Assembly (NCBI GenBank): GCA_029567025.1
Contig: JAKQLT010000058.1
Coordinates: 1-46,235, forward strand
Length of the DNA stretch: 46,235 bases
Origin: Candidatus Omnitrophota bacterium
GTDB lineage: Bacteria; Omnitrophota; Gorgyraeia; Zapsychrales; Zapsychraceae
Reading direction: 5' to 3'
Position numbers and translations under genes: made by a program
Shown here: positions 34,160 through 46,235 of the stretch, one piece after another
Numbering within the stretch: the first letter of the stretch is position 1
How the letters are laid out: each line of letters starts with the position of its first letter
The notes under the pieces: model-generated
Databases searched by the model: none
What the model was told of the DNA's origin: nothing
What the model saw: the letters and a program-made list of their open reading frames with translations, nothing else

Positions 34160-34962
34160 TGAAAGTCGCTGTTATTCAATTGCGCGTAGAGAACGAGATA
34201 GAAAAAAATATCGCAAAGGCCATGGCCGCGGTTCGTCGCGCGATAGCGCAGCGGGCCACATTTATTCTTTTGCCTGAACTTTTTATTTTTAGTGGCGTGG
34301 TAAGAGAAAAAGCTGTTTCAGAGATAGCGGAAGATATTTATGGGGCAACAACAAAAATTTTTTCCGCTATGGCTCGTCGTTATAAGGCCTATATTTTATT
34401 AGGATCTATTTTGGAAAAAATTAAAAAAAAATCAAAAGTATATAACACTTCTATTTTATTAGATGATCACGGTTGTGTCGCAGGCATCTATCGCAAAAAA
34501 CATCTTTTTAAGGCTGTCATTAAAAAGAAAAATATTGATGAGTCTCGTTATTTTTTAAGCGGCCAGCATCAGGTTATGTCGAAAGTCAAAGAATTTCGAG
34601 TTGGGTTATCGACCTGTTTTGATGTGCGTTTTCCGCGTATGTATCAGGATTATAAAAATAAAAAGGCAGATATTTTGTGTATTCCGTCGGCATTTACGCG
34701 TGAAACAGGTTTGGCTCATTGGGAAGTTTTATTGCGCGCCCGTGCGATTGAAGGGCTCTGTTATGTCTTAGCGCCAAATCAGGTAGGATGTGATGGCCAA
34801 GGCATTTTGCGTTATGGCCATAGTATGATTATTGATCCGTGGGGAAAAATTTTAGCGCGCGCTTCCGATCGACAAGAAGATATTATTTATGCTGATTTAC
34901 ATAAAAAAAATATTATAAAAAAAAGGAGAATATTATTCTCTGTAATGACAAAGGACAGCTGA
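34159..34962 (+). CDS. Carbon-nitrogen hydrolase (nitrilase superfamily)
   Basis: Candidate E-K-C triad contexts LPELF, YRKKHLF and STCFDVRFP. The start overlaps the upstream stop. Confidence 0.8.
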
Positions 34963-35948
34963 TGATAAAAAAAACTATTAGAGTTGCTGTGACAGGTGCG
35001 GCGGGACAAATTGGCTACGCGCTTTTGTTTCGCATAGCTTCCGGCGAGATGTTTGGGCTTGAAACCGAAATTGAATTGCAATTATTAGAGTTGCCGGGCG
35101 CTTTATCTGCGTTAGAAGGGGTTGCGATGGAGCTGCAAGACGGCGCGTTTCCTTTATTAAAATCTGTTATAAAAACAGATGATCCTCGTCGATCGTTTGA
35201 AGGTGTTGATTGGGCTTTATTGGTCGGCAGCGTTCCGCGTAAGGCGGGTATGGAACGCAAAGATCTTTTACAGATTAATGGACGTATTTTTATAGAACAA
35301 GGACGCGCTTTATCCGAAGTTGCCAATCCAACTTGTAAAGTTTTGGTTATTGGAAATCCGTGTAATACCAACGCTTATATTGCGAAAACAGCGTGTCGGA
35401 ATATTCCAGAAAAGAATTTTTTTGCGCTTATGATGTTAGACCAAAATCGTGCTTGTGCTCTTTTAGCCCAAAAGGCAGGATGCCGTATTACATATATTAA
35501 AAATATGATTGTTTGGGGGAATCATTCTTCGACTCAATTTCCGAATTTTTATGATGCCACGATTAAAGGAAAAGAAGCGTATGATGTCTTAGATGAAAAA
35601 TGGCTTCAAACAGAATTTTTAACTCAAGTGCAACAACGGGGCGCTGAAATTATTAAAGCGCGCGGCATGTCTTCAGCGGCATCAGCGGCGCAAGCCGTTA
35701 TTGAAACTGTAAAAAATATTTATCATCCGATTTTAAAAAATGAATGTTTTTCTGTTGCCGTTGCGTCTGATGGCAGTTATGGAATTGAAAAAGGCCTGAT
35801 GTTTGGTTTTCCGGTTTTATGTAGTCAAGGCGATTGGCATATTGCTCAAAATATTTCAATGAATCATCCTTTTATTAAGGAAAAGATGGATAACACCTAT
35901 CAAGAGCTTTTAGCAGAAAAAAAAGCCGTAGAAGACATTTTGTTATAG
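34962..35948 (+). CDS. mdh: Malate dehydrogenase (NAD-dependent, long-type MDH)
   Basis: [27 protein letters not shown].., GNPCNTNA, and the substrate-Arg and catalytic-His regions are typical of this MDH class. Confidence 0.88.
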
Positions 35949-36149
35949 AATATTTTTTAAAAAAAATATCAAAAATTTATATAATTCTATTAGACCGTGA
36001 TTTTAAACTATGATAGGATTTTAAAGGGTCATCGTGTTTTTTAATTTAAAATAAAGGCGTTGTCCTTGTTTTTTTTGAAAAATGTATTATACTTTAACGA
36101 CATTTTCCTTATATATTAAAAAGATATTTAATGAGAGGGGTTTTGAAAG

Positions 36150-37112
36150 ATGAGATATTCTAAAAATTTTTGTGTTAGTGTCGCTATTTTATCTATTGCC
36201 TTGTTTTTAACAGGATGTGATCAATTAAAAGCTTTTCAAGAATATTTTAGTAAGAAGTCCCAATCCAAACAAGCTGTTGTTGAACAGCCGCAAGCTGTGC
36301 CTGCTGTTACTCAAGAAATTCCTCTTGGCCCTTTACCTGCTAATGTCTTAGCCCGTGTTGGCACATGGACCATGACAATGGATGATTTTAAAGAAAAATT
36401 AAATAATTTAAAACAAGCGATGCCGGATTTTGATATTACAACGGAAGAAAATCAGAAAGCTGTTTTAGATGAATTGGTGAATCAGCAGATTTTGGTTGTT
36501 GAAGCTGAGAATAAACGATTGTCTTATGATAAAGAAGTTTTCAAGGCATTAGAAGAATTTAGGCGAACGATCCTTGTTCAAAAAATGGTTTCGGATATGG
36601 TTGAGAATATTAAAGTGACAGAGGCCGAAGCGCAAGCATTATATAATGAACGTAAAGATTTTTTTGTTGAGCCTATTGAGCTTCATGTGAGAGAAATTGT
36701 TATGGATTCGCAAGCAAAAGCGAAAGAAGTCCTCGTTGATCTTTTAAAAGGCGGGGATTTTGCCGAAGCCGCGAAACAATATTCTAAAGGAAAAACAGCC
36801 GCGCAAGGCGGTGATTTAGGTTTTATCACGCAAGTTTCTTTTCCGGAAATGGGCAATGCCCTTATGGCGCTGGATGTCGGCGGCGTTAGTAATGTTTTTA
36901 AAGGCCCGGATGGATTTTATATTGTGAAAGTCGAGGAAAAAAAGGGCGGAGCCCAAGTTCCTTTTGAGAAAATCAAAGACGAGATTATAAGAAATATGAC
37001 ATTATCAAAACAACAGCAAACCGTTTTAGATTATATTGCCCAATTGCGCCAGAAAACAAAAATTGATATTAATCAAGACCTTTTAAAATCCTTATTACAG
37101 GAGAAGAAATAA
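36150..37112 (+). CDS. PpiC/parvulin-type peptidyl-prolyl isomerase lipoprotein (PrsA/SurA-like)
   Basis: Lipobox LFLTGC. Parvulin core FAEAAKQYSKGKTAAQGGDLGFI..GPDGFYIVKV. The stop overlaps the cpaB start (TAATG). Confidence 0.82.
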   Translation: MRYSKNFCVSVAILSIALFLTGCDQLKAFQEYFSKKSQSKQAVVEQPQAVPAVTQEIPLGPLPANVLARVGTWTMTMDDFKEKLNNLKQAMPDFDITTEENQKAVLDELVNQQILVVEAENKRLSYDKEVFKALEEFRRTILVQKMVSDMVENIKVTEAEAQALYNERKDFFVEPIELHVREIVMDSQAKAKEVLVDLLKGGDFAEAAKQYSKGKTAAQGGDLGFITQVSFPEMGNALMALDVGGVSNVFKGPDGFYIVKVEEKKGGAQVPFEKIKDEIIRNMTLSKQQQTVLDYIAQLRQKTKIDINQDLLKSLLQEKK

Positions 37113-37984
37113 TGTTTAATATAGAAAATAAAAAACAATTTGCGATTATTTTATTAGCGGTTGGTTTAGGATTGTTTGCAGCTTTTCTTACAAGCCAGTA
37201 CATTAAAAATAGTATTACCGAGCAAACAAAGACTTTTGCGCAATCGTATGTCCAAAGTAATATGGAGAAAGAACAACAATTACAACAACAAATTGAAATG
37301 TTGCGCGCACAAATGGCTCAGGAAATTCAAAGAGTGGCTCAAGAAGCGGCTCAGCAGGCCGCGGCGCAACAAGCTCAGCAACAAGTTGTTACCAAAACAG
37401 AAGAAAAAGAAGTTCGTCAAGAAGCTTTTTCTGTGCGTATGCCAAAAGGCAAAAGAGCATTAACTGTTCTTATTGACTCTTTGTCTGCAGTCGGCGGTCT
37501 TATTAAAGCTGGTGATTTGGTTGATATTATTGCGCATTTAAAAGTGCCAGATATTACAAAAGATAAAGACAGAGAAATTGTCAAAGTTGATGATGTAACC
37601 ACTATTTTATTCCAGAAAATTTTAGTTCTTTCTGTGAATACGAACTTCGATGATATGACGCCACCAGATTATGTGCAACAGCAACAAGCTGGACGATTGA
37701 ATATTACTTTAGCGTTGGAACCTGAAGCCGCGGCTTTATTGACATTTGCTCAGAAAAATGGTCAATTACAATTTACATTGCGTGCGCCGGATGAAAAAGA
37801 AACAGGTGTTTTTAAAGTTGCGTCATGGCAAGCGTTATCCGATTTTGTATTAGAACATCAAGGAACACGGCTTAAAGTTCCTCGTGATAAAATAAATACA
37901 GCGACTCCTGTTGTAACAACAGAAATAGAAAAAGAACCTGAGCCTGTTATAAAAATTTTTAAATCAGGACAAGCGGTTCAATAA
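37112..37984 (+). CDS. cpaB: Flp pilus assembly protein CpaB/RcpC-like with a Gln-rich coiled-coil insert
   Basis: N-terminal TM helix. CpaB-type core (MPKGKRALTVLIDSLSAVGGLIKAGDLVDII.. ..ILVLSVN.. ..ITLALEPEAAALLTFAQKNGQLQFTLR). Preceded by EQQLQQQIEMLRAQMAQEIQRVAQEAAQQAAAQQAQQQ. Confidence 0.8.
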   Translation: MFNIENKKQFAIILLAVGLGLFAAFLTSQYIKNSITEQTKTFAQSYVQSNMEKEQQLQQQIEMLRAQMAQEIQRVAQEAAQQAAAQQAQQQVVTKTEEKEVRQEAFSVRMPKGKRALTVLIDSLSAVGGLIKAGDLVDIIAHLKVPDITKDKDREIVKVDDVTTILFQKILVLSVNTNFDDMTPPDYVQQQQAGRLNITLALEPEAAALLTFAQKNGQLQFTLRAPDEKETGVFKVASWQALSDFVLEHQGTRLKVPRDKINTATPVVTTEIEKEPEPVIKIFKSGQAVQ

Positions 37985-38002
37985 AAAATAAGGGATATAA
38001 TC

Positions 38003-39766
38003 ATGATAAAAAAGAAAAAGTTTTTTTATTTCATTTTTTTTGTTGTTATTTGCTGTTTATTTTTTTCAAAAGCGCTTTGTGCTCAAATAGCAGAACAAGC
38101 GGACATTGTTGATACAAAAGAAGCCAAAGGCATTGCGTTAATGAAAGGAGAAATAGCAACTCTAAAGGTGTATGATTTAACACGGATTTCTTTAACAGAT
38201 CCTTCCGTGGCTGATATTATTGAAGCTAAAGGCGATAAAATTTTATTAATCGCGCGTGAGGTTGGACAAACGGTTTTATTTTTATGGGATAAATATGGAA
38301 AAAAGACTTTTGTTGTGTATGTTTTTAACCAAAATTTGGAAGAAATTCAAAATCGTTTAATATCTCTTTTTCAAGTCGCTGAAATTGAAGGTATTCAATT
38401 GTCCATTAATAATAAAGAAGGAAAAATAGTGCTTTCTGGCGGAGTGCCAGAAGATAAACAAGATTTATTTAATAAAATTATAGAACCATTTTCTCCAGAT
38501 ATTATTGTATTAACAGAGAAAGAAAAACGCGATGATTTGGTGCAAATAGACATGCAGGTGACTGAATTATCGACGACATTATCACAAACCTTAGGTATTG
38601 ATTGGACAAATCAACTGAAATACAATGAAACATTACCGAGCTTTGACGGATCCGTTAAAGATTATTTTAAAATAGGAGATTTTAATCGTACCACAGCTCT
38701 TTTAGCAACGGTTAACGCTTTGCTTGTCGAAGGAAAGGCGCGTATTTTATCACAACCTAAATTAGTTGTCGTAAGTGGTGAAGAAGCGAATTTTTTGGTT
38801 GGAGGGGAAATTCCTGTTAGAACCGCAACGGTTAATGAAACAGGAACGGCTGAGAATGTGAATTATAAATCTTATGGTATTGGAATGACAATAAAACCTA
38901 TTATTCGTAAGAAAAAAATAGATATTACGTTAAGCACAGAAATTAGCGACGTGGATGCTTCTAATTCTTCAGAAGATAATGTTGCTTTTGTTACGAGAAC
39001 AGCGCAAACACAGTTGTTTTTAGAAGATGGCCAAACCATTGTTTTGGCTGGATTGATTAGAAGTACAAAAAGTCAAGAAGTTAAACAAGTGCCGTTTTTA
39101 GGAAAAATACCTGTTGTTGGATTATTATTTCGTAGTAAATCAACGCCTGCCGCTAATCAAGACAATGAAATAGTTATTTCTTTAACGCCGTATATTTTAA
39201 TGAATAAAAAAGATGATTTGGTTTTAGAGAATATGGAAAACATGCGCATACAAGAGAAAGCAGTCAATAATATAGCGCAAGAAAAAGAAGAACCAAAAAT
39301 GTTAGATATTCAGGATTCTGTTGATGAGAAGACTTTAGAACAATCTCAAAAAGTTGAGACGCTTGCAGAAAAATCACCGCTGATTAAAAAGACTGTCAAA
39401 GAAATGCCTGTGATTGATGAAAAGCCATTATCGGTGAATTCTTCAGAATATCTTTTTGGTATTCCGGAAGAATTGCAAGAGTATGTTAAAGATGTTCAAA
39501 AAAGAATTGCTCAAGCGATTTCTTATCCTCAGGAAGCACAAAGTTATGGTTGGCAGGGCGTTGTTAAAATCGGAATGCTTATTCTTAACGACGGAACGCT
39601 TGCCTTCGCTTTGGTAAAAGAATCATCCGGCTATGAAGTTTTTGATAACAACGCGTTAAAGGTCGCAAAATCTTTAGCGCCTTATCCGCGTTTTCCTGCG
39701 AATACGGATTTGATGGAATTAAGCATTACCGTTCCTATCGTTTATTCTTTGACCAAACAAAAATAA
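38003..39766 (+). CDS. cpaC: Tad-type secretin (CpaC/RcpA-like) fused to a C-terminal TonB_C-like domain
   Basis: Signal peptide. Pilus-formation N-terminal domain (..ISLTDPSVADIIEAKGDKILLIAREVGQTVLFLW..). Secretin core (ARILSQPKLVVVSGEEANFLVGGEIPV.., VPFLGKIPVVGLLFRS). Charged linker, then YPQEAQSYGWQGVVKIGMLILNDGTL..VKESSGYEVFDNNALKVAKSL..FP, which matches the TonB C-terminal pattern. Confidence 0.82.
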   Translation: MIKKKKFFYFIFFVVICCLFFSKALCAQIAEQADIVDTKEAKGIALMKGEIATLKVYDLTRISLTDPSVADIIEAKGDKILLIAREVGQTVLFLWDKYGKKTFVVYVFNQNLEEIQNRLISLFQVAEIEGIQLSINNKEGKIVLSGGVPEDKQDLFNKIIEPFSPDIIVLTEKEKRDDLVQIDMQVTELSTTLSQTLGIDWTNQLKYNETLPSFDGSVKDYFKIGDFNRTTALLATVNALLVEGKARILSQPKLVVVSGEEANFLVGGEIPVRTATVNETGTAENVNYKSYGIGMTIKPIIRKKKIDITLSTEISDVDASNSSEDNVAFVTRTAQTQLFLEDGQTIVLAGLIRSTKSQEVKQVPFLGKIPVVGLLFRSKSTPAANQDNEIVISLTPYILMNKKDDLVLENMENMRIQEKAVNNIAQEKEEPKMLDIQDSVDEKTLEQSQKVETLAEKSPLIKKTVKEMPVIDEKPLSVNSSEYLFGIPEELQEYVKDVQKRIAQAISYPQEAQSYGWQGVVKIGMLILNDGTLAFALVKESSGYEVFDNNALKVAKSLAPYPRFPANTDLMELSITVPIVYSLTKQK

Positions 39767-39784
39767 TCAGTATAATAAGTTTTT

Positions 39785-41950
39785 ATGAATGCAAAAACGA
39801 TAACACTTTTTAGTAATAAAGGTGGCGTGGGTAAAACTTTTATCGCGGTAAATTTAGCCGCGGCGTTGGCCATTTCTAAAAAGAAAGTTTTACTTTTAGA
39901 TTTTGACTTGCAAGCCGGCCAAGATATGGCCCGTGTCATTAATCTTTCCCCGAAAGCATCCATTATCGATCTTTTGCCTCGATTAGAAACAATTGAAAAA
40001 ATAGATTCGATGATCGAATTTGTCGCTGTTCATTCGTCGGGCGTTCATTTCTTACCTGCCGTGCGCGGCATTAAACAAATCAATCATGTTACTCCAGATA
40101 ATATCAAACCGTTTATTCGTAAGGCTAAAGAATTTTATGATTATATTCTGATTGATGCGGGCCGTTCGTTTAGTGAGACATTAATTACTCTTTTTGATTA
40201 TTCGAATTTGTTATTATTGGTGGCCACACCTGATATTTTAGCTGTTTATCAAATTAAAACGAGTATTGATATTTTGCAGAATCTTCAATTCCCGCTTAAG
40301 ATTGCAAAACTGATTTTAAATCGTTCGGAAAGTAGCGGAAGCGTGGCGTGGCAGGAAATTCGTACCGCACTTCCTTGTGAGATTTTCAGTCATATTCCTT
40401 CCGACGGAAAAGTAGTAGGTTTAGCCTTAAATCGTGGAATTCCGTGTGTTTTAGATAGTCCTAAAAGTAAAGTCGCTGAGTCTTTTATGCGCATGGCCCA
40501 GATGATTGAAAAAGATAAAGATCTTTTTGTGGAATCAACGGATATTGAAAAACAAAGGGCGGTAGAAAGCGTTTCTGCTCAAGGGCAATTTTGGGAAAAT
40601 TTTGGAATTTCTCAGCATGTGGCGGATGCGGCTGGCGCTATCACGGCTATTAAAGAAGATGATGAAATAACTATTTTAAAGAAAAAAATACATGAAAAAC
40701 TTATTGAGCGTTTAAATCTCGACGGGATTACGCCAGAGAAATTAAACGATCCACAAACGATAGCGCGTGTTAAAAAAACATCGGAACAGTTAGTCGGAAA
40801 TCTTTTAATGGAAGAAATGGGCGGGAAACAAATCGCTTCTCATGAAGAGCGTATTCATATTGTGAAAGACGTGGTCAATGAGGCTTTAGGATTAGGGCCT
40901 TTAGAAGATCTTTTGGCGGATGGCGATGTGACAGATATTATGGCGAATAATCGTAATGAAATTTATGTGGAGAAAAACGGCCGTCTTGTGTTAACCAATA
41001 AGAAATTTTTGTCTGATTCTCGCATGCGTGCGGTTATAGATCGTATTATCGCGCCTTTAGGCCGTCGTATTGATGAATCAACGCCGATGGTGGATGCGCG
41101 TTTGCCTGACGGTTCGCGTATTAACGCGATTATTCCGCCATTGTCTTTAAACGGTCCGATGATTACGATTCGTAAATTTGGACAGGAGCGTTTAACGGTC
41201 ACAGATTTACTGTCTCAGTATAAAAGTTTGACAGAGCCAATGTCAAAATTTTTACAAGCGAGCGTTGTGGCGCGAAAAAATATTATTGTTTCCGGCGGAA
41301 CAGGTTCAGGAAAAACAACTCTTTTAAACGTGTTATCTGAATTTATTCCTGATGGAGAGCGCATTATTACGATAGAAGACGCCGCAGAATTGAAACTCAA
41401 AAAAAGCCATTGGGCGCGATTAGAGTCACGACCGTCGAACGTTGAAGGAAAAGGCCAGGTAACCATTCGGGATCTTTTTACGAATTGTTTGCGTATGCGA
41501 CCTGATCGTATTGTTATTGGGGAATGTCGTGGCGCTGAAGTTTTAGATATGCTTCAGGCAATGAATACGGGACACGATGGTTCTTTAACCACTATTCACG
41601 CGAATTCCGCGCGCGATGTTTTGACGCGTTTGCATTCTTTAATTTTATTAAGTGGTATTGAACTTCCTGTTCGCGCTATTAATGAAATGGTGGCTTCCGC
41701 GATTCATTTGATCGTTCACATTAATCGTTATTCCGACGGTTCAAGAAAAGTGACTGGTATCGCGGAAATAGTGGGATTAGATAAAGATTTTCAGCCAGAA
41801 CTAAAAGATATTTTTGTTTTTAAACAGGCTGGCATTGACTCTGATGGAAAAGTGATAGGTTCTTATGTCCCAACCGGATACATTCCAAAATGTTATCAGG
41901 ATTTTATCACTCAAGGCATCAAAATTGATAAAAATATTTTTTCGCTTTAA
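39785..41950 (+). CDS. TadZ/CpaE-like ParA/MinD ATPase fused to TadA/CpaF secretion ATPase
   Basis: Residues 1-245 are ParA/MinD-like (FSNKGGVGKTFIAVNLA, LIDAG). Residues ~290-721 are CpaF-like (LGPLEDLL.D..VTDIM.N, Walker A GGTGSGKTT, IITIEDAAEL, RPDRIVIGECRG, NTGHDGSLTTIHANS). It is one uninterrupted 721-aa ORF. Confidence 0.85.
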   Translation: MNAKTITLFSNKGGVGKTFIAVNLAAALAISKKKVLLLDFDLQAGQDMARVINLSPKASIIDLLPRLETIEKIDSMIEFVAVHSSGVHFLPAVRGIKQINHVTPDNIKPFIRKAKEFYDYILIDAGRSFSETLITLFDYSNLLLLVATPDILAVYQIKTSIDILQNLQFPLKIAKLILNRSESSGSVAWQEIRTALPCEIFSHIPSDGKVVGLALNRGIPCVLDSPKSKVAESFMRMAQMIEKDKDLFVESTDIEKQRAVESVSAQGQFWENFGISQHVADAAGAITAIKEDDEITILKKKIHEKLIERLNLDGITPEKLNDPQTIARVKKTSEQLVGNLLMEEMGGKQIASHEERIHIVKDVVNEALGLGPLEDLLADGDVTDIMANNRNEIYVEKNGRLVLTNKKFLSDSRMRAVIDRIIAPLGRRIDESTPMVDARLPDGSRINAIIPPLSLNGPMITIRKFGQERLTVTDLLSQYKSLTEPMSKFLQASVVARKNIIVSGGTGSGKTTLLNVLSEFIPDGERIITIEDAAELKLKKSHWARLESRPSNVEGKGQVTIRDLFTNCLRMRPDRIVIGECRGAEVLDMLQAMNTGHDGSLTTIHANSARDVLTRLHSLILLSGIELPVRAINEMVASAIHLIVHINRYSDGSRKVTGIAEIVGLDKDFQPELKDIFVFKQAGIDSDGKVIGSYVPTGYIPKCYQDFITQGIKIDKNIFSL

Positions 41951-41986
41951 AAAGAAAATCATCATTGTAAGTTGTTTTCCTTCCTT

Positions 41987-42328
41987 ATGACAATTATTAA
42001 TCAAACCCAAAAGACAATCATTGCTCAAAATGTTAAAATCGCGCAAACATTATCTTCGCGGATTATTGGACTTTTAAATCGTTTTTCGCTTGATGAAAAT
42101 GAGGCGCTGGTTATTACTCAATGTCAGTCGATTCATATGTTTTTTATGAAATTTGCGATTGACGCGATTTTTGTTGATAAAAATAATGTTGTTGTTGGAT
42201 TAGTCGAAAATATTAAACCTTTCCAATTAAGTCCTATTTTTTTTAAGGCCAATTATGTTATTGAAGCGCCTGTTCAAACAATCTTGCGAACAAAAACCTG
42301 CCTTGGCGATAGAATAGAAATAATTTAA
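41987..42328 (+). CDS. DUF192-family protein
   Basis: ..RIIGLLNRFSLDENEALVITQCQSIHMFFMKFAIDAIFVDKNNVVVG.. matches the DUF192/COG1430 pattern. ATG at 41987 is preferred to the TTG at 41972. Confidence 0.65.
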   Translation: MTIINQTQKTIIAQNVKIAQTLSSRIIGLLNRFSLDENEALVITQCQSIHMFFMKFAIDAIFVDKNNVVVGLVENIKPFQLSPIFFKANYVIEAPVQTILRTKTCLGDRIEII

Positions 42329-42429
42329 CATTCAAAAGATGTCTTTTTTAATTGTTTTTATTATGTTATAGTGTTTCTATCTGGAAATCAATGTCCAATC
42401 TGGTCAAAAATAGAGAAATTTTATAAATT

Positions 42430-44247
42430 ATGGGTGTTATTTATAAGCTAAAACAAGAAGTTATTGATTATATTCTTCACATAAAGAAAGAAAATAATGA
42501 TTTTAGTTGCCGTCAAATTGCGAAAATCGCTTCCGATAAATTTGATGTGGACATTTCTAAATCTTCTGTAAATACTATTCTTAAGAATTCTCAATTAAGT
42601 AGCGGTGTCGGTCGTCGGGTTATTCAAAAAAAAGATTCGAGCCGCAAGTTTCAGATTCCTCAAGAAAGAAAAGAACAATTTCAAGAAACCATGAAACAGT
42701 TTGGTTTTGAAAAAGAAAATGTTGTTGCCATAGAAGAGCCGATAGCTGTACCGCTTTTGCCGGATGCAGTTAAGGAAAATCTTTTTTTGGAGCCCAAAAG
42801 CGATGATATCATGCTTTTGGAATCTCAAGCGCCAACATTATTAGTCTCGCAAGAACAACATTTGTCTTTAACCGATCAAACAGATTCAAAGCTGATAGAA
42901 GAAATAGATTTTTTACGCCAACAAAAACAGCAGGCATTTTCAAAAGTTTATACAAATGCAGGAGTTATTTTATTAAAAGCATTGTTATTGTTGACAGATG
43001 GCATCGGATTTTTATTGAAGATTATTAAAAAATATAATCCAGAACATATTTTTCCGGATAATTTTGAAGAGAGTTTAAATATTTTTCTTTTATTAAAGGC
43101 CTTAGGAATCAAAGATCCTTTTGAAGAAGATATTTCTTCTTACGCGGCAGGACTTTTGGGGCTACAAAAATCAGATAGCGCTTATGTGGGTCAGGCATTA
43201 GCCAGCGAAGATTCTCGAAAGATTTTTTTTCAGTGGAGCAAAAAAATACGCCTTTCTGATGATTTATTAAAGGAATACAGGAAAGAGAAAAATAATCTAT
43301 TTTTGAGCGTTTATGGCTTTAGGATAGAGTTGGAAGACAAAACAGTTTTATTGACAGATGCTTCTTTAAAATCTTTTTATAAAGAAATGGATTGTATTTT
43401 TCCATTGCCTTTTTATCATGCGATTCGTTTATTGTCTCAATATTTTATTGTGAATGAAAAGCCGATGGTTTTTGATTTTTCCGGAAATTCTTTGTTGTAT
43501 TTGCCTCAGATTGCCAAGATGTTCGATAATGTAAAAGAAAAGCGCGTTCAAAAAATATTTATCTTGAATGATCATCTGCAAGACATTTGTGAATTATCCG
43601 TCATTCCTCAAAAAAAGCGTCAATGGATAGCCCGTGTCGATTTTTCTTTTTTTGAAGGTATGGAAAAAACGGTTTCGGCGGGATCCCGTAAAAAAGTTTT
43701 TTATGATGCATTGTCCGACGAGATATATGATTTTTCAGAATTTCTTTGCCAGCTTGATCATAATCAAAACGTGAGAGCGTTTATTATTGAAAATAAATCG
43801 TGCGAGCGTTTAGCGACTGTTTTTTCTAATTGTTTTGAAATGGAATCTGAAGCTGTTGTATCGTCTTTTTTTATGCGTTTTATATTTAAAAATTCTTTTG
43901 TTAAAGAAAAAGTTTCTGTTACCGGATTTTTAAAGAATAATGAAAATGCGATAATAGAAAATTTTTCAGATTTGGCGGACGACTTTTTAAAAACGTTCGC
44001 GAATTATTTTACGCAGTATTTTTTGTCTGATAAGAATAAAGATAATAGTAGCGCTTGGAATGAATTTTTGAAATTGAAAGGCTCTTTCGATGAGACAAAA
44101 CAATTTTTACATGCGCTGTTTTATCTCGATGAAAAAAGTCCTTTTAAGAATGATTGTATTATGGCAATGCGCATTTTCAATGAGTATTTGATTTTGGATG
44201 ATAAACAGCGCAGGATTTTTTTAGATATTGCTAAAATCAACAATTAG
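42430..44247 (+). CDS. Hypothetical 605-aa protein with an N-terminal helix-turn-helix-like region
   Basis: The N-terminus FSCRQIAKIASDKFDVDISKSSVNTILKN looks like an HTH. The rest has no recognised motifs. Only one weakly hydrophobic stretch (AGVILLKALLLLTDGIGFLL), so it is not a TadB/TadC polytopic platform protein. Confidence 0.6.
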   Translation: MGVIYKLKQEVIDYILHIKKENNDFSCRQIAKIASDKFDVDISKSSVNTILKNSQLSSGVGRRVIQKKDSSRKFQIPQERKEQFQETMKQFGFEKENVVAIEEPIAVPLLPDAVKENLFLEPKSDDIMLLESQAPTLLVSQEQHLSLTDQTDSKLIEEIDFLRQQKQQAFSKVYTNAGVILLKALLLLTDGIGFLLKIIKKYNPEHIFPDNFEESLNIFLLLKALGIKDPFEEDISSYAAGLLGLQKSDSAYVGQALASEDSRKIFFQWSKKIRLSDDLLKEYRKEKNNLFLSVYGFRIELEDKTVLLTDASLKSFYKEMDCIFPLPFYHAIRLLSQYFIVNEKPMVFDFSGNSLLYLPQIAKMFDNVKEKRVQKIFILNDHLQDICELSVIPQKKRQWIARVDFSFFEGMEKTVSAGSRKKVFYDALSDEIYDFSEFLCQLDHNQNVRAFIIENKSCERLATVFSNCFEMESEAVVSSFFMRFIFKNSFVKEKVSVTGFLKNNENAIIENFSDLADDFLKTFANYFTQYFLSDKNKDNSSAWNEFLKLKGSFDETKQFLHALFYLDEKSPFKNDCIMAMRIFNEYLILDDKQRRIFLDIAKINN

Positions 44248-44259
44248 TTTTATTGTCTC

Positions 44260-44287
44260 TTGACCCTCCATAATAATATGATATACT
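44260..44287 (+). promoter_or_regulatory. Sigma70-like promoter for the pilin gene array
   Basis: TTGACC (44260-44265), 16-nt spacer, TATACT (44282-44287). Confidence 0.5.
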
Positions 44288-44314
44288 TTTTATGAAAGAG
44301 TGTTTTTAGCGGTT

Positions 44315-44470
44315 ATGATTATTTTAAAAAACAATCATAAAGGTCAAAGTATTATTGAATATGTTCTTGTCGCGACTATTGTCGCGGCCGCTGTTATGGC
44401 TATGAGCACTTATGTTTTTCGTTCGGTTCAGGCCACACAGCAAATGATTCAAAAGGAAGCTAATAAATAA
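44315..44470 (+). CDS. flp: Flp-family prepilin (51 aa)
   Basis: Not in the ORF track (short). My translation is MIILKNNHKG/QSIIEYVLVATIVAAAVMAMSTYVFRSVQATQQMIQKEANK*. It has the G/xxxxEY processing motif followed by a hydrophobic helix. An upstream in-frame GTG at 44300 is an alternative start. Confidence 0.75.
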   Translation: MIILKNNHKGQSIIEYVLVATIVAAAVMAMSTYVFRSVQATQQMIQKEANK

Positions 44471-44506
44471 TAAAATAATAAGAGAGAAAATAAAGGAGGA
44501 AAGCGC

Positions 44507-44719
44507 ATGTTAAGACAATATCAGGCAGGATGTTTTAAAAGAAAGAGAAAAGGACAAAGTACGGTTGAGTATATTATTTTAGTAGCAGGCGTTATTGCGG
44601 TCTTATTGATTTTTTTACGTCCCAACGGCCCTTTTCATACGGCTTTTAATGAAACATTAAAAACCGGAACAAATGGAATGGAAACTATAGCTGAAAGATT
44701 AAAAAATTCTCATTCATAA
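44507..44719 (+). CDS. Flp-like prepilin paralog (70 aa)
   Basis: RBS AAAGGAGGA. KRKRKG/QSTVEYIILVAGVIAVLLIF. Confidence 0.78.
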   Translation: MLRQYQAGCFKRKRKGQSTVEYIILVAGVIAVLLIFLRPNGPFHTAFNETLKTGTNGMETIAERLKNSHS

Positions 44720-44749
44720 AAAAGGTCATAAAAGATCAGGAGGCGTTTT

Positions 44750-45172
44750 ATGTTGAAAAAATTATTTAAAAATAAGAAGGCCCAAAATACCGCTGAATAT
44801 GCGATATTGATTTCTTTAGTTGTGGACGGGATTGTTGCTATGCAAACGTATGCTCAACGAGCTTTGCAAGCTCGCGTTAAAGATTCAGCTGATGTTATGA
44901 CATCTATTGTGGGTACTTCAGATGTTCAGAATTCTTGGAGTGATGTTGGCGGAAATGCTTTAGGTTCCACAAAACAATATGAACCATATTATTTAGCGCA
45001 AGATTATAATGTTTATCGTGATGATTCAGAAGAAAAAGGTTATGATACTGCGGGCTTTTATGTTGATTCTAATGGAGAAAGAAGGAGAAGAGGTAAACAA
45101 ACGACAACATATAATGAATCCGGCACAGTTGGTACAGGCATGAGTGGATTGTCCAAATCACCAACACCATAG
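44750..45172 (+). CDS. Flp/TadE-like pilin paralog (140 aa)
   Basis: RBS AGGAGG. KNKKA/QNTAEYAILISLVV, then YAQRALQARVK and a YEPYY motif. Confidence 0.75.
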   Translation: MLKKLFKNKKAQNTAEYAILISLVVDGIVAMQTYAQRALQARVKDSADVMTSIVGTSDVQNSWSDVGGNALGSTKQYEPYYLAQDYNVYRDDSEEKGYDTAGFYVDSNGERRRRGKQTTTYNESGTVGTGMSGLSKSPTP

Positions 45173-45220
45173 TAACATATGTAATAAAATAAAATATTTT
45201 ATAATTTTAAGGAGGAAATA

Positions 45221-45589
45221 ATGTTTAAATATTTAAATAAAAAAAGAGGTCAAAGCACTTTAGAATATGCGATTTTGATAATAATTATTATAGGCGCGCT
45301 TTTATCCATTCAGGTTTATATTAAGCGCGGTATTCAAGGCCGTTTAAAAGGCGCGGCGGATGATATCGGGGATCAATTTTCACCAGGAAATACGAATTCC
45401 AGAATAACTACAAGGACAATAAGTAATACTCAAGAAACAAATTATGGAGGTGAGGCTACGTCTGAATTGTTAGAAGATGAAGTTACAACGACTAATAAAA
45501 CGCTTAGAATTATTAATACTGATCAAGAATATTGGGGAGTATCTCATAGCGCTAGTGGTCAGGGTCAGATCCCGCAGAATCCTAATTAA
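45221..45589 (+). CDS. Flp/TadE-like pilin paralog (122 aa)
   Basis: RBS AAGGAGGA. NKKRG/QSTLEYAILIIIIIGALL, then YIKRGIQGRLK. Confidence 0.75.
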   Translation: MFKYLNKKRGQSTLEYAILIIIIIGALLSIQVYIKRGIQGRLKGAADDIGDQFSPGNTNSRITTRTISNTQETNYGGEATSELLEDEVTTTNKTLRIINTDQEYWGVSHSASGQGQIPQNPN

Positions 45590-45621
45590 TAATTTTTTAA
45601 AAAAATATTTTATAATATTAG

Positions 45622-45668
45622 AAACGGCTTGTTAGAGATAAGAAGTTTTCTGACAGGCCGTTTTTATT
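45622..45668 (+). terminator. Possible Rho-independent terminator after the fourth pilin gene
   Basis: Stem cggcttgt / acaggccg (extendable through A-T pairs), then TTTTTATT. The 20-nt loop is large, so confidence is moderate. Confidence 0.45.
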
Positions 45669-45761
45669 GGAATATATTATAAAATCCTCAAAAAGAAAAT
45701 GGTTTTTTATGAAAAATGTTGTATACTTTGAATAAGAATATTAATAATAAAGGAAATAGTT

Positions 45762-46235
45762 ATGCTACGACGCTTAAGACATAAGAAAGCGCAAGCGAAT
45801 ATGGGAGAATATGCGCTTGTTTTGATTATAACGATTAGTTTTATTTCTGCAGTTAGTTTGTATGTTCGACGGGCTTTGCAGTCTCGTCTTTTTGATGCGC
45901 GGAATCTTTTGATGCATGCAGACTGTTTCGGCTGTCTTCCTTCTAGTAGTCTTAAAAGTAATCCATCGACAAATATGTTAGGCAATATAGATATTTCATA
46001 CGAGCCATATTATACGGTCACATCATCAAAAAGATATGCAAGTTATGATGGAGAGGCAAATTTAGTTACAGATGGGACAGGAACTTCTTTTCAAAGAAAA
46101 TTTGATTCTGCGGGAGATTATTCTTCTTTAGGAATTACGTTGCCGCCTTCTGCTAGCGGAAATCCAGCACATATTGAACCATATATCAATATTATTAAAG
46201 AAAAAACGTCGGTATTGCATAATACTGTATTTATT
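45762..46235 (+). CDS. Larger pilin-like paralog, partial (>=158 aa, runs off the right edge)
   Basis: Not in the ORF track (no stop in window). My translation is MLRRLRHKKAQANMGEYALVLIITISFISAVSLYVRRALQSRLFDARNLL...ISYEPYYTVTSS... It shares the EY-hydrophobic helix, the Y-x-R-x-L-Q-x-R-L motif and the EPYY motif with the upstream paralogs. Confidence 0.65.
   Translation, partial: MLRRLRHKKAQANMGEYALVLIITISFISAVSLYVRRALQSRLFDARNLLMHADCFGCLPSSSLKSNPSTNMLGNIDISYEPYYTVTSSKRYASYDGEANLVTDGTGTSFQRKFDSAGDYSSLGITLPPSASGNPAHIEPYINIIKEKTSVLHNTVFI

What the first reader, a model, noticed from the sequence alone, without database searches (positions are those of the whole stretch)
44315..46235. Array of five Flp-like prepilin paralogs with Q(+1) and shared post-helix motifs
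Five consecutive genes (51, 70, 140, 122 and >=158 aa) all carry a basic leader, then (G/A)/Q-x-x-x-E-Y and a hydrophobic helix. Two of them were missed by the ORF track. The leaders read KG/QSIIEY, KG/QSTVEY, KA/QNTAEY and RG/QSTLEY. The fifth (KKAQANMGEY) has a one-residue shift and no small residue at -1, so it may not be cleaved in the same way. Q at +1 with E at +5 resembles the archaeal class III signal (QxSxExxxL) more than typical bacterial Flp. The three larger paralogs share Y-x-(Q/K/R)-R-x-(L/I)-Q-x-R-(V/L) just after the helix, and two share a (Q/S)YEPYY motif. This suggests one major pilin plus a graded set of minor or tip pilins from a distinct family. The fifth gene follows a terminator-like hairpin and may be separately transcribed.
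Basis: partly seen in the sequence, partly recalled or inferred. Interest (0 to 1): 0.6.

Follow-up and report, generated by a model that had tools for sequence, protein, structure and literature searches.

The report
Omnitrophota Tad pilus multi-pilin gene block
The five small genes are real pilin genes, the first five of a fixed set of eleven that uncultured Omnitrophota bacteria (suspected nano-predators) keep in their Tad adhesion-pilus operon; the pilin families are unnamed and partly unusual, but the machine and the locus are of a known kind.

Summary
Five + strand ORFs (51, 70, 140, 122 and 158+ aa) each carry a short basic leader, (G/A)|Q, E-Y and a hydrophobic helix. They follow PPIase, RcpC, a secretin-TonB_C fusion, a TadZ-TadA fusion, DUF192 and a 605-aa gene.

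A 99.98% identical metagenome contig continues past the window end. P5 is 159 aa. After it come three more Flp-like genes, three large TadE/F/G-like prepilins, then tadB and tadC. All eleven orthogroups recur, mostly in the same order, in 27-35 of 35 full-length loci from other Omnitrophota species.

Gln at +1 holds in 605 of 631 prepilin-like ORFs. [quoted passage not shown] So this is a bacterial Tad system, not an archaeal one.

P5 does have Ala at -1. Its orthogroup carries one extra residue, which puts Glu at +6.

P3 and P4 belong to large families confined to Omnitrophota in every search I ran. They pass no curated model. Both are predicted as a helix plus a long beta-hairpin, with no PDB match.

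A strong hairpin follows P4 in all 77 loci tested. Metatranscriptome contigs fall almost only on P1-P4.

No TadV is present, only one PilD-type peptidase.

Verdict: new variant of a known kind, already outlined in the literature.

The parts
44260..44287 (+). Promoter-like site (TTGACC-16-TATACT with TG) ahead of P1
   Evidence: consensus scan only. The 13 sites found in the region compare with 10.2 expected from shuffles, so this is weak on its own.
44315..44470 (+). P1: 51-aa Flp-size prepilin (leader MIILKNNHKG | QSIIEY; mature 41 aa)
   Evidence: Flp_Fap scores 20.7 bits, below the cut-off of 32.2. The orthologue is present in 35 of 35 full-length loci at a median 63% identity. An RNA contig covers 44373-44526 in X30/X31.
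44507..44719 (+). P2: 70-aa prepilin (KRKG | QSTVEY), helix-break-helix type; GGAGG Shine-Dalgarno
   Evidence: Class_IIIsignal scores 29.4 bits, above the cut-off of 23.7. NCBI names its homologues 'class III signal peptide-containing protein [Ca. Omnitrophica]'. It is present in 35 of 35 loci. RNA contigs lie on it in X25, X26 and X33.
44750..45172 (+). P3: 140-aa prepilin (NKKA | QNTAEY), with the YAQRALQARV and QYEPYY motifs; predicted helix plus long beta-hairpin; GGAGG Shine-Dalgarno
   Evidence: At least 1469 homologues. 2442 representatives of 50%-identity clusters match at E<=1e-3. AF2 gives pLDDT 74, helix 2-52 and hairpin 81-120. There is no PDB fold or sequence match. RNA contigs lie on it in 4 of 4 activated-sludge metatranscriptomes.
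45221..45589 (+). P4: 122-aa prepilin (KKRG | QSTLEY), with YIKRGIQGRLK..DDIGDQ.SPGNTN...EYWG; predicted helix plus long beta-hairpin; GGAGG Shine-Dalgarno
   Evidence: At least 1392 homologues at 65-75% identity. AF2 gives pLDDT 73, helix 13-52 and hairpin 58-97. There is no PDB match. An RNA contig covers 45139-45390 in X29.
45621..45668 (+). Strong stem-loop plus U run: intrinsic terminator or attenuator closing the P1-P4 unit
   Evidence: -35.1 kcal/mol, z = -7.1; an equivalent hairpin follows the P4 orthologue in 77 of 77 loci. Its median dG is -30.6, against -14 to -16 after the other pilin genes. The P4-P5 gap has a median of 181 nt, against 5-58 nt elsewhere.
45650..45678 (+). Promoter-like site (CTGACA-17-TATATT) ahead of P5
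   Evidence: consensus scan only; weak.
45762..46235 (+). P5: prepilin of 159 aa (the last codon and the stop lie beyond the contig end), HKKA | QANMGEY with Glu at +6, with the YVRRALQSRL and SYEPYY motifs; first gene of the downstream unit
   Evidence: The orthogroup reads (G/A)|Q-x4-E-Y in 48 of 48 and has YEPYY in 46 of 48. No RNA contig lies on it.
37112..41950 (+). Context: Tad machinery genes rcpC/cpaB (37112-37984), secretin-TonB_C (38003-39766) and the TadZ-TadA fusion (39785-41950)
   Evidence: Pfam results. The same gene order is seen in L011 and L015.

Best explanation
The five ORFs are the first five of eleven consecutive prepilin-type genes of an Omnitrophota-type Tad (type IVc) pilus operon.

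The operon order is: PPIase, rcpC, secretin-TonB_C, tadZ-tadA fusion, DUF192, 605-aa gene, P1-P4, terminator, P5-P7, three large TadE/F/G-like prepilins (523, 126 and 1100 aa), P8, tadB, tadC. What is shown: the genes, their conservation and order, the signal motif, the terminator, and in-situ RNA on P1-P4.

The following steps are inferred.
- Each product inserts into the inner membrane by its N-terminal helix.
- Its 10-16-residue basic leader is removed before Gln+1 by the genome's only A24 prepilin peptidase. That enzyme is PilD-type, is encoded on another contig, and is shared with the type IVa pilins.
- The TadZ-TadA / TadB-TadC motor polymerises the mature subunits through RcpC and the secretin.
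- P1-P4 form a strongly expressed, terminator-bounded unit that supplies the fibre subunits. P1 and P2 are short and Flp-like. P3 and P4 have a helix plus a beta-hairpin that would lie on the fibre surface.
- P5, with its Glu shifted to +6, and the genes behind the terminator are low-abundance adapter pilins and a TadE/F/G-like tip complex. This matches the model for the Myxococcus Kil Tad pilus.
- The likely role is attachment to prey or host cells by these suspected nano-predators.
For: - Tad context: RcpC, Secretin, T2SSE plus a ParA-like fusion. Single-domain T2SSF TadB and TadC lie downstream on the 99.98% identical contig L011.
- Prepilin grammar: in 631 ORFs of 80 related loci, +1 is Q in 605, -1 is G in 412 and A in 216, and +6 is Y in 485.
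- All eleven orthogroups are present in 27-35 of 35 full-length loci. Gene order is colinear in 54 of 64 loci.
- Hairpin after P4: -35 kcal/mol here. It is conserved in 77 of 77 loci, and the largest intergenic gap is there.
- P2-P4 have full GGAGG Shine-Dalgarno sites, while P1 and P5 do not (sequence).
- RNA: in eight metatranscriptomes almost all clean contigs lie between 44373 and 45390. P3 is covered in 4 of 4 runs of the first set. Only one clean contig lies on 13.4 kb of dnaA-gyrA housekeeping genes in the same runs.
- Peptidase: there is one A24 gene, of A24_N_bact + Peptidase_A24 type. In 15 other genomes carrying the P3 family there are one or two A24 genes, with open frames of 245-373 aa, never near the pilin locus.
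- Precedent for a shared peptidase: B. bacteriovorus Tad has a TadZ-TadA fusion and no TadV, and its PilD processes Flp1 (bioRxiv 10.64898/2026.07.08.737194).
- Framework of major pilin, Flp adapters and a TadE/F/G tip: Herrou et al. 2025 (PMC12075869).
Against: - Processing, assembly and fibre composition are not shown for any Omnitrophota pilin.
- The RNA evidence comes from assembled contigs. These show presence and are a poor measure of abundance.
- P1 is the most Flp-like gene and the first in the unit, but it is short and may simply assemble poorly into contigs.
- The AF2 models are monomers of moderate confidence (pLDDT 73-74). The hairpins could pack differently or be partly disordered.
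- No curated TadE, TadF or TadG model matches the three large downstream proteins. TadE scores 12.1 bits against a cut-off of 22.9.
- Ala at -1 in P3 and P5 is a poor substrate for some studied prepilin peptidases (from my own knowledge, not tested here).
- The window's own MAG lacks the downstream half of the operon.
Confidence: 0.62

Rival explanations
1. Canonical Tad arrangement. P1 alone is the major Flp pilin, and the fibre is an all-helical homopolymer as in Caulobacter. P2-P5 and the later genes are all low-copy minor or adapter pilins. Nothing about the fibre is unusual.
For: - P1 has canonical Flp size (mature 41 aa), is the first gene of the array, and has the best Flp_Fap score of the set (20.7 bits).
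- It is 63% conserved.
- Solved Tad pilins lack a globular domain (abstract of PMC11067988).
Against: - P2-P4 share P1's transcription unit, upstream of the conserved terminator.
- They carry stronger Shine-Dalgarno sites than P1.
- They are where the RNA contigs lie.
- P3 and P4 are as conserved as P1 over their whole length.
Confidence: 0.22
2. The system is a secretion pseudopilus rather than an adhesive pilus. The eleven pilins would build a short T2SS-like piston that exports or displays the giant surface protein encoded next to such loci in Omnitrophota.
For: - West-Roberts et al. [quoted passage not shown] They list gspD/E/F homologues, rcpC, a Rotamase_2 PPIase and many small class III signal genes.
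- In L015 a protein of more than 1352 aa follows tadC.
Against: - The platform is split into TadB and TadC.
- The ATPase is CpaF/TadA-like and fused to TadZ, and RcpC is present.
- These are Tad rather than T2SS hallmarks according to Denise et al. 2019 (PMC6668835).
- High P2-P3 RNA fits a fibre better than a short pseudopilus. L011 ends at tadC, so no giant gene is shown for this lineage.
Confidence: 0.12
3. The array is an archaeal Epd-type pilin set, recently acquired from archaea (for example methanogen prey) and served by an EppA-like peptidase.
For: - P2 passes Pfam Class_IIIsignal (29.4 bits), and 52 of 119 members of the P4 family hit it weakly.
- Q+1 and E+5 match the EppA substrate motif (PMC3875500).
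Against: - Tyr +6 is present; it is the Flp hallmark that Epd pilins lack.
- 47 of 120 members of the P3 family hit Flp_Fap weakly.
- The secretin, RcpC and TadZ-TadA are bacterial.
- The only A24 peptidase carries the bacterial N-domain A24_N_bact.
- The set is fixed across a whole class of Omnitrophota, so it is old.
- The resemblance is expected from the deep common ancestry of Tad and Epd (PMC6668835).
Confidence: 0.03

Closest known systems
Myxococcus xanthus Kil Tad pilus (major Flp pilin KilP, Flp adapter pilins KilK/KilO, KilL/M/N TadE/F/G-like tip complexes; Herrou et al. 2025, PMC12075869)
   Same: - A Tad machine in a predatory bacterium with several Flp-type pilins.
- Three larger prepilins, one of them very large, that would form a tip.
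- Cleavage motif G|xxxxE.
- Adapter pilins expressed at a low level.
   Different: - Here all eleven pilin genes sit in one operon in a fixed order.
- Four pilins, not one, lie in the highly expressed unit.
- Two of those four are predicted as helix plus beta-hairpin, whereas KilP is all-helical.
- Gln +1 is near-universal.
- No sequence match to KilL/M/N was tested.
Bdellovibrio bacteriovorus Tad system (bioRxiv 10.64898/2026.07.08.737194; Avidan et al. 2017, PMC5430801)
   Same: - TadZ fused to TadA.
- No TadV in the tad loci, with a PilD encoded elsewhere that processes Flp1.
- Several flp paralogues.
- Seymour et al. 2023 place Omnitrophota TadB and TadC with those of Bdellovibrionales.
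   Different: - The Bdellovibrio tad genes are dispersed over several loci.
- Its pilins are described as Flp/TadE/F/G.
- No 110-160-aa helix plus hairpin pilin families are reported there.
Canonical Flp/Tad loci (Aggregatibacter flp-1-flp-2-tadV-rcpCAB-tadZABCDEFG; Caulobacter pilA-cpaA-F)
   Same: - A short basic leader, then G|xxxxEY, then a hydrophobic helix.
- Pilin genes at the edge of a tad operon.
- A terminator behind the pilin genes. This is from my own recollection of the 'termination cascade' of the Aggregatibacter tad locus (Kram et al. 2008) and was not checked here.
   Different: - One or two Flp genes of 50-80 aa plus TadE and TadF, against eleven here.
- A dedicated TadV.
- +1 is usually Ala or Val (from my own knowledge).
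- Pfam Flp_Fap and TadE models match those proteins but not the ones here.
Archaeal EppA-dependent (Epd) pilins of Methanococcus maripaludis (DUF361 / Pfam Class_IIIsignal)
   Same: - A short leader ending in Gly, then Gln +1 and Glu +5.
- A mix of about 60-aa and larger pilins.
- Tad and Epd share ancestry (PMC6668835).
   Different: - Epd pilins lack Tyr +6 and the Flp motif (PMC3875500).
- The host is archaeal.
- They use the EppA peptidase.
- There is no secretin or RcpC.
[quoted passage not shown] 2023, bioRxiv 10.1101/2023.11.21.568195) and the Tad complex of Velamenicoccus archaeovorus (Seymour et al. 2023, PMC10066038)
   Same: [quoted passage not shown]
   Different: Those papers mention the small genes in one sentence. 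They do not define the orthogroups, the motifs, the terminator-split architecture, the predicted folds or the expression.

Membership tests
Flp/Fap pilins of Tad (type IVc) pili, Pfam PF04964 | Profile match at or above the Pfam gathering score (32.2 bits) | tested here: not met
   P1 scores 20.7 bits, P2 14.8, and P3-P5 nothing. In the P3 family, 47 of 120 members give only weak hits, best E = 0.0025. NCBIfam gives no hit.
Flp/Fap pilins of Tad (type IVc) pili, Pfam PF04964 | Short basic leader, small residue at -1, Glu +5, Tyr +6, then a ~20-residue hydrophobic helix (G|xxxxEY) | tested here: met
   The sequences of P1-P4 show it. In P5, Glu and Tyr are at +6 and +7, a trait of its orthogroup. 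Statistics over 631 ORFs are.
Flp/Fap pilins of Tad (type IVc) pili, Pfam PF04964 | Small (50-80 aa), entirely alpha-helical subunit | tested here: inconclusive
   P1 (51 aa) and P2 (70 aa) fit by size. P3, P4 and P5 (140, 122 and 159 aa) do not. AF2 predicts a helix plus a ~40-residue beta-hairpin for P3 and P4 at pLDDT 73-74.
Flp/Fap pilins of Tad (type IVc) pili, Pfam PF04964 | Encoded in a tad locus with TadA, TadB, TadC, TadZ, RcpA and RcpC | tested here: met
   RcpC, Secretin and the ParA-like + T2SSE fusion lie upstream. Two single-domain T2SSF genes lie downstream on L011 and L015.
Flp/Fap pilins of Tad (type IVc) pili, Pfam PF04964 | Leader removed by a dedicated short TadV/FppA/CpaA peptidase | tested here: not met
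   No A24 gene lies in the locus. This genome has one PilD-type gene, A24_N_bact + Peptidase_A24, 270 aa. The 15 related genomes have one or two A24 genes with open frames of 245-373 aa, all far from the locus. Actual cleavage cannot be tested with these tools.
Class III signal peptide proteins / archaeal Epd pilins, Pfam PF04021 | Profile match at or above the gathering score (23.7 bits) | tested here: inconclusive
   P2 scores 29.4 bits and passes. P4 (15.8) and P7 (18.7) fall below, and P1, P3 and P5 give nothing. In the P4 family, 52 of 119 members hit weakly. The model covers only the 27-residue signal.
Class III signal peptide proteins / archaeal Epd pilins, Pfam PF04021 | Gln +1 and Glu +5, no Tyr +6, EppA-type peptidase, archaeal host | tested here: not met
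   Q+1 and E+5 are present, but so is Tyr +6. The peptidase is of the bacterial PilD type. The host is Omnitrophota by record titles. The criteria come from PMC3875500.
TadE/TadF pseudopilins, Pfam PF07811 / PF16964 | Profile match above the gathering score; G|xxxxE(F/L) N-terminus | tested here: not met
   P1-P5 give no hit. The downstream 126-aa protein scores 12.1 bits on TadE against a cut-off of 22.9. Two of 119 members of the P4 family hit TadF weakly. The 523-aa and 126-aa proteins do have A|Q-x3-E-(L/F) N-termini.
Type IVa pilins / T2SS pseudopilins (N_methyl, PF07963) | G|(F/M)xxxE N-methylation motif | tested here: not met
   None of P1-P5 hits N_methyl. A genuine type IVa/T2SSG pilin of the same genome does, at 29.2 bits (C230:369-866).

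The most novel reading that the evidence does not exclude
The Omnitrophota Tad fibre may not be an all-helical Flp homopolymer. It could be a heteropolymer, or a coated filament, built from the four co-transcribed subunits P1-P4. The helix plus beta-hairpin pilins P3 and P4, which come from families seen so far only in Omnitrophota and have no solved relative, would form its surface. All subunits would begin with Gln and would be matured by a PilD shared with type IVa pili. That would be a new architectural class of type IV filament in a phylum of suspected nano-predators.
Probability: 0.22. Interest if true: 0.7.

Novelty: new variant of a known kind. Interest (0 to 1): 0.42.

Why it matters
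Tad pili are the attachment and, in predators, the killing organelles of many bacteria. All solved Tad fibres are polymers of a bare helix. Omnitrophota are abundant, uncultured, ultra-small bacteria suspected of preying on other microbes, and how they attach is unknown.

A fixed eleven-pilin module would give concrete candidates for the fibre and tip of their contact apparatus. Two of its pilin families are highly conserved, unnamed, predicted as helix plus hairpin, and transcribed in wastewater communities. The module would also widen the known range of Tad pilin architecture.

The finding corrects the idea that the +1 Gln marks an archaeal-type system. It also adds a second lineage, after Bdellovibrio, in which a Tad system has a TadZ-TadA fusion and apparently borrows PilD.

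Tried and rejected
- Foldseek of both AF2 models against the PDB gave no match below E = 0.4. The top hits are stem hairpins of pore-forming toxins and phage coat proteins, which I regard as meaningless.
- Profile searches of the P3 and P4 families against PDB sequences gave nothing.
- NCBIfam gave nothing for ten pilin-like proteins.
- The simple terminator scanner found 0 sites, because the hairpin has a long stem with G-U pairs. Folding showed the hairpin.
- I looked for a dedicated TadV peptidase in this genome and in 16 relatives and found none.
- I looked for the rest of the operon in the window's own MAG; it is absent.
- The Kizina et al. 2022 paper on V. archaeovorus (PMC9004380), which may hold proteomic data, is not held in the library.
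- I considered a recent archaeal origin and spurious ORFs, and rejected both (see the rival explanations).
- A pore-forming role for the hairpins is rejected because their sequence is highly polar (P3 residues 81-120).
Full report
**What is in the window.** Searches show five consecutive + strand ORFs at 44315-46235.
- P1: 51 aa, leader MIILKNNHKG then QSIIEY.
- P2: 70 aa, ...KRKG|QSTVEY.
- P3: 140 aa, ...NKKA|QNTAEY.
- P4: 122 aa, ...KKRG|QSTLEY.
- P5: 158 aa, open-ended, ...HKKA|QANMGEY.

Each has about 20 hydrophobic residues after the E-Y. P2, P3 and P4 have full GGAGG Shine-Dalgarno sites; P1 and P5 do not. Directly upstream, on the same strand, lie a parvulin PPIase, RcpC/CpaB, a secretin with a C-terminal TonB_C domain, a ParA-like/T2SSE (TadZ-TadA) fusion, a DUF192 protein and a 605-aa protein. 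Further upstream are dnaA, dnaN, gyrB and gyrA. The window is a complete 46,235-bp contig of a 1.6-Mb, 241-contig, 37% G+C MAG.

**The array continues beyond the window.** A JGI metagenome contig (L011, 32.6 kb) is 99.98% identical to window 34750-46235 and runs on. On it P5 is 159 aa, so the window lacks only its last codon and the stop. These genes follow:
- P6, 114 aa, RRG|QSIVEY.
- P7, 111 aa, NRG|QSSLEY.
- A 523-aa protein, SKA|QIVLEL.
- A 126-aa protein, RKA|QVIIEF.
- A 1100-aa protein, SQG|QAAFIL.
- P8, 117 aa, NKG|QSFIEY, with a Cys-rich tail.
- Two single-domain T2SSF genes, TadB and TadC.

The MAG itself does not contain this half. A distant relative (L015, on a 1.34-Mb contig) has the same genes one for one and in the same order.

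**Conservation.**
- P3 has at least 1469 word-indexed homologues at about 50% identity over about 90% of its length. An exhaustive profile search finds 2442 representatives of 50%-identity clusters at E<=1e-3, and 636 at E<=1e-10.
- 115 of the 120 best P3 hits read A|QNTAEY, and all 120 have QYEPYY.
- P4 has at least 1392 homologues at 65-75% identity. Their consensus is KG|QSTLEYAVLIIIIIGALLSIQVYIKRGVQGRLKSAADDIGDQYSPGNTN...EQEYWG.
- P2 homologues carry PF04021, and NCBI calls them class III signal peptide-containing proteins of Ca. Omnitrophica.
- Among GTDB species representatives, 150 loci encode a P3 relative. All 80 that were kept are titled Omnitrophota/Omnitrophica, Zapsychrus or Aceula; a few carry generic or other submitter labels ('uncultured Planctomycetales/Planctomycetia', one 'Candidatus Saccharibacteria', 'bacterium'), and one of the Planctomycetales-labelled bins is the same contig as L015.
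- In an even sample of the phylum, 41 of 201 genomes have the family. These are all 9 listed genomes of the same order, 28 of the same class, and three weak hits elsewhere.
- In the 35 full-length related loci the orthogroups are present as follows: P1 35, P2 35, P3 35, P4 35, P5 27, P6 34, P7 33, 523-aa 35, 126-aa 32, 1100-aa 35, P8 33. Median identities to this lineage are 63, 56, 48, 63, 30, 35, 43, 33, 35, 31 and 39%.
- Gene order is colinear in 54 of 64 loci.

This is therefore an old, fixed module, not a local expansion.

**The signal.**
- I scanned the 80 loci with a pattern that left +1 free. Of 631 prepilin-like ORFs, 605 have Gln at +1. Residue -1 is Gly in 412, Ala in 216 and Ser in 3. 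Residue +6 is Tyr in 485, Phe in 68 and Leu in 59.
- The P5 orthogroup is a consistent exception in spacing. All 48 members read (G or A)|Q-x4-E-Y. So P5 has Ala at -1 and Gln at +1 like P3, and its Glu sits at +6.
- In the literature, EppA substrates have Gly -1, Gln +1 and Glu +5. [quoted passage not shown]
- Tad and Epd share ancestry (PMC6668835).
- The grammar here is therefore Flp-type (E5, Y6) with Gln +1. This is a known combination, and the partial Class_IIIsignal matches are expected.

**Family membership.**
- Only P2 passes a curated model: Class_IIIsignal, 29.4 bits against a cut-off of 23.7.
- P1 reaches 20.7 bits on Flp_Fap, against a cut-off of 32.2.
- NCBIfam gives nothing.
- Across families, 47 of 120 P3-type and 52 of 119 P4-type proteins give sub-threshold hits to Flp_Fap and Class_IIIsignal respectively.
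- The P3 and P4 profiles are related to each other only over the first ~60 residues (hhalign probability 98.6%).

**Predicted structure.** AF2 with deep alignments gives the same plan for both proteins.
- P3: helix 2-52, a low-confidence loop, and a two-stranded hairpin at 81-99 and 102-120 (pLDDT 74; 78-89 in the hairpin).
- P4: helix 13-52 and a hairpin at 58-75 and 78-97 (pLDDT 73).

Neither model has a Foldseek match in the PDB below E = 0.4, and neither profile has a PDB sequence relative. Solved Tad pilins lack any beta domain (abstract of PMC11067988). If the models are right, this is a departure from known Tad pilins. Confidence is moderate and the models are monomers.

**Operon architecture and expression.**
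- The 172-nt P4-P5 spacer holds a 20-bp stem-loop followed by a U run (-35.1 kcal/mol, z = -7.1).
- In 77 of 77 related loci the strongest 55-nt hairpin within 140 nt after the P4 orthologue has a median dG of -30.6 kcal/mol. The same measure after P1, P2, P3, P6 or P7 gives -14 to -16.
- The hairpin sequences differ between species while the structure is kept.
- The P4-P5 gap has a median of 181 nt, against 5-58 nt for the other gaps.
- In four activated-sludge metatranscriptomes the clean RNA contigs on the 10-kb locus lie on 44488-45158, which is P2 and P3. Three small pieces lie on the PPIase and on the rcpC-secretin junction.
- In four further RNA runs the only full-length pieces are 44373-44526, 44513-44684 and 45139-45390.
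- Over 13.4 kb of dnaA-gyrA-pilT-type genes, the first four runs give a single clean contig.
- Contigs show presence, not quantity. Even so, the pattern fits a highly expressed P1-P4 unit closed by an attenuator, with P5 and the rest made at a lower level.

**Peptidase.**
- This genome has one A24 gene, PilD-type with A24_N_bact + Peptidase_A24, on contig C230 next to a type IVa/T2SSG pilin.
- L015's genome has a single one, 640 kb from its Tad locus.
- Fifteen genomes carrying the P3 family (one of them, G130, is L015's own genome) have one or two, with open frames of 245-373 aa, never near the locus.
- A recent preprint shows that B. bacteriovorus Tad likewise has a TadZ-TadA fusion and no TadV, and that its PilD cleaves Flp1.
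- Shared PilD processing is thus the best inference, but it is untested here.

**Comparison with what is known.**
- Seymour et al. 2023 reported Tad complexes in Omnitrophota, analysed through TadB/C, RcpA and TadZ.
- West-Roberts et al. [quoted passage not shown]
- The Kil pilus of Myxococcus supplies the functional framework of major pilin, Flp adapters and a TadE/F/G tip.

What I did not find in the papers I searched:
- the definition of the eleven orthogroups;
- the P3 and P4 families and their predicted helix plus hairpin fold;
- the E+6 orthogroup;
- the conserved terminator split;
- the in-situ RNA pattern.

Earlier notes of this scan on other genomes reached the same picture. They are not independent evidence.

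**Verdict.**
- It is a bacterial Tad pilin module of an unusual, conserved and only partly described composition: a new variant of a known kind, of moderate interest.

Noticed in passing
window 44826: The window reads A here, which puts Asp at residue 26 of P3, inside the hydrophobic helix. Four near-identical metagenome contigs and three RNA contigs read C (Ala), and Ala is nearly invariant (90% or more) in the family. This is either an assembly or strain variant, or a damaging substitution in this MAG.
   Followed up: partly
window 46235 (contig end): The contig stops one codon before the P5 stop. The remaining 8.2 kb of the operon (P6-P8, three large prepilins, tadB, tadC) is absent from the whole 241-contig MAG. 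It is present on the 99.98% identical contig L011.
   Followed up: yes
genome contigs C177:4583-4807 (+) and C183:13916-14122 (-): Two orphan P2-like small prepilin genes (KG|QGMLEY, 74 aa; NG|QTAFEY, 68 aa) lie far from any pilus machinery. The second passes Pfam Class_IIIsignal at 26.3 bits.
   Followed up: partly
window 39785-41950: TadZ (ParA-like) and TadA/CpaF are fused in one 721-aa protein. The same fusion has just been reported for Bdellovibrio bacteriovorus tad locus 1 (bioRxiv 10.64898/2026.07.08.737194).
   Followed up: partly
window 41972-44247: A DUF192 gene and a 605-aa protein with a weak HTH hit sit between tadZ-tadA and the pilins, and they are syntenic in a distant relative (113 aa + 493 aa in L015). 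They do not replace tadB and tadC, which lie at the far end of the operon.
   Followed up: partly
whole genome: This 1.6-Mb genome carries about six two-domain T2SSF (PilC/GspF-like) genes, on C184, C44, C12, C68, C156 and C172. That points to several further type IV filament or T2SS-like systems.
   Followed up: no
loci L024, L026, L029 and others: Many third-party-annotated bins that carry this Omnitrophota-type locus are titled 'uncultured Planctomycetales bacterium'. One of them is the same contig as L015, which genome search places in the window's own order. The titles look like coarse or wrong labels.
   Followed up: no
window 42430-46235: Near-identical DNA is held by wastewater, activated-sludge, anaerobic-digester and biogas-fermenter metagenomes from many studies, so this population is widespread in engineered water systems.
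   Followed up: no
L011:17514-17867 and L015:16900-17223: The last Flp-like pilin (P8), just before tadB, has a conserved Cys-rich C-terminal tail. No other pilin of the set has one.
   Followed up: no
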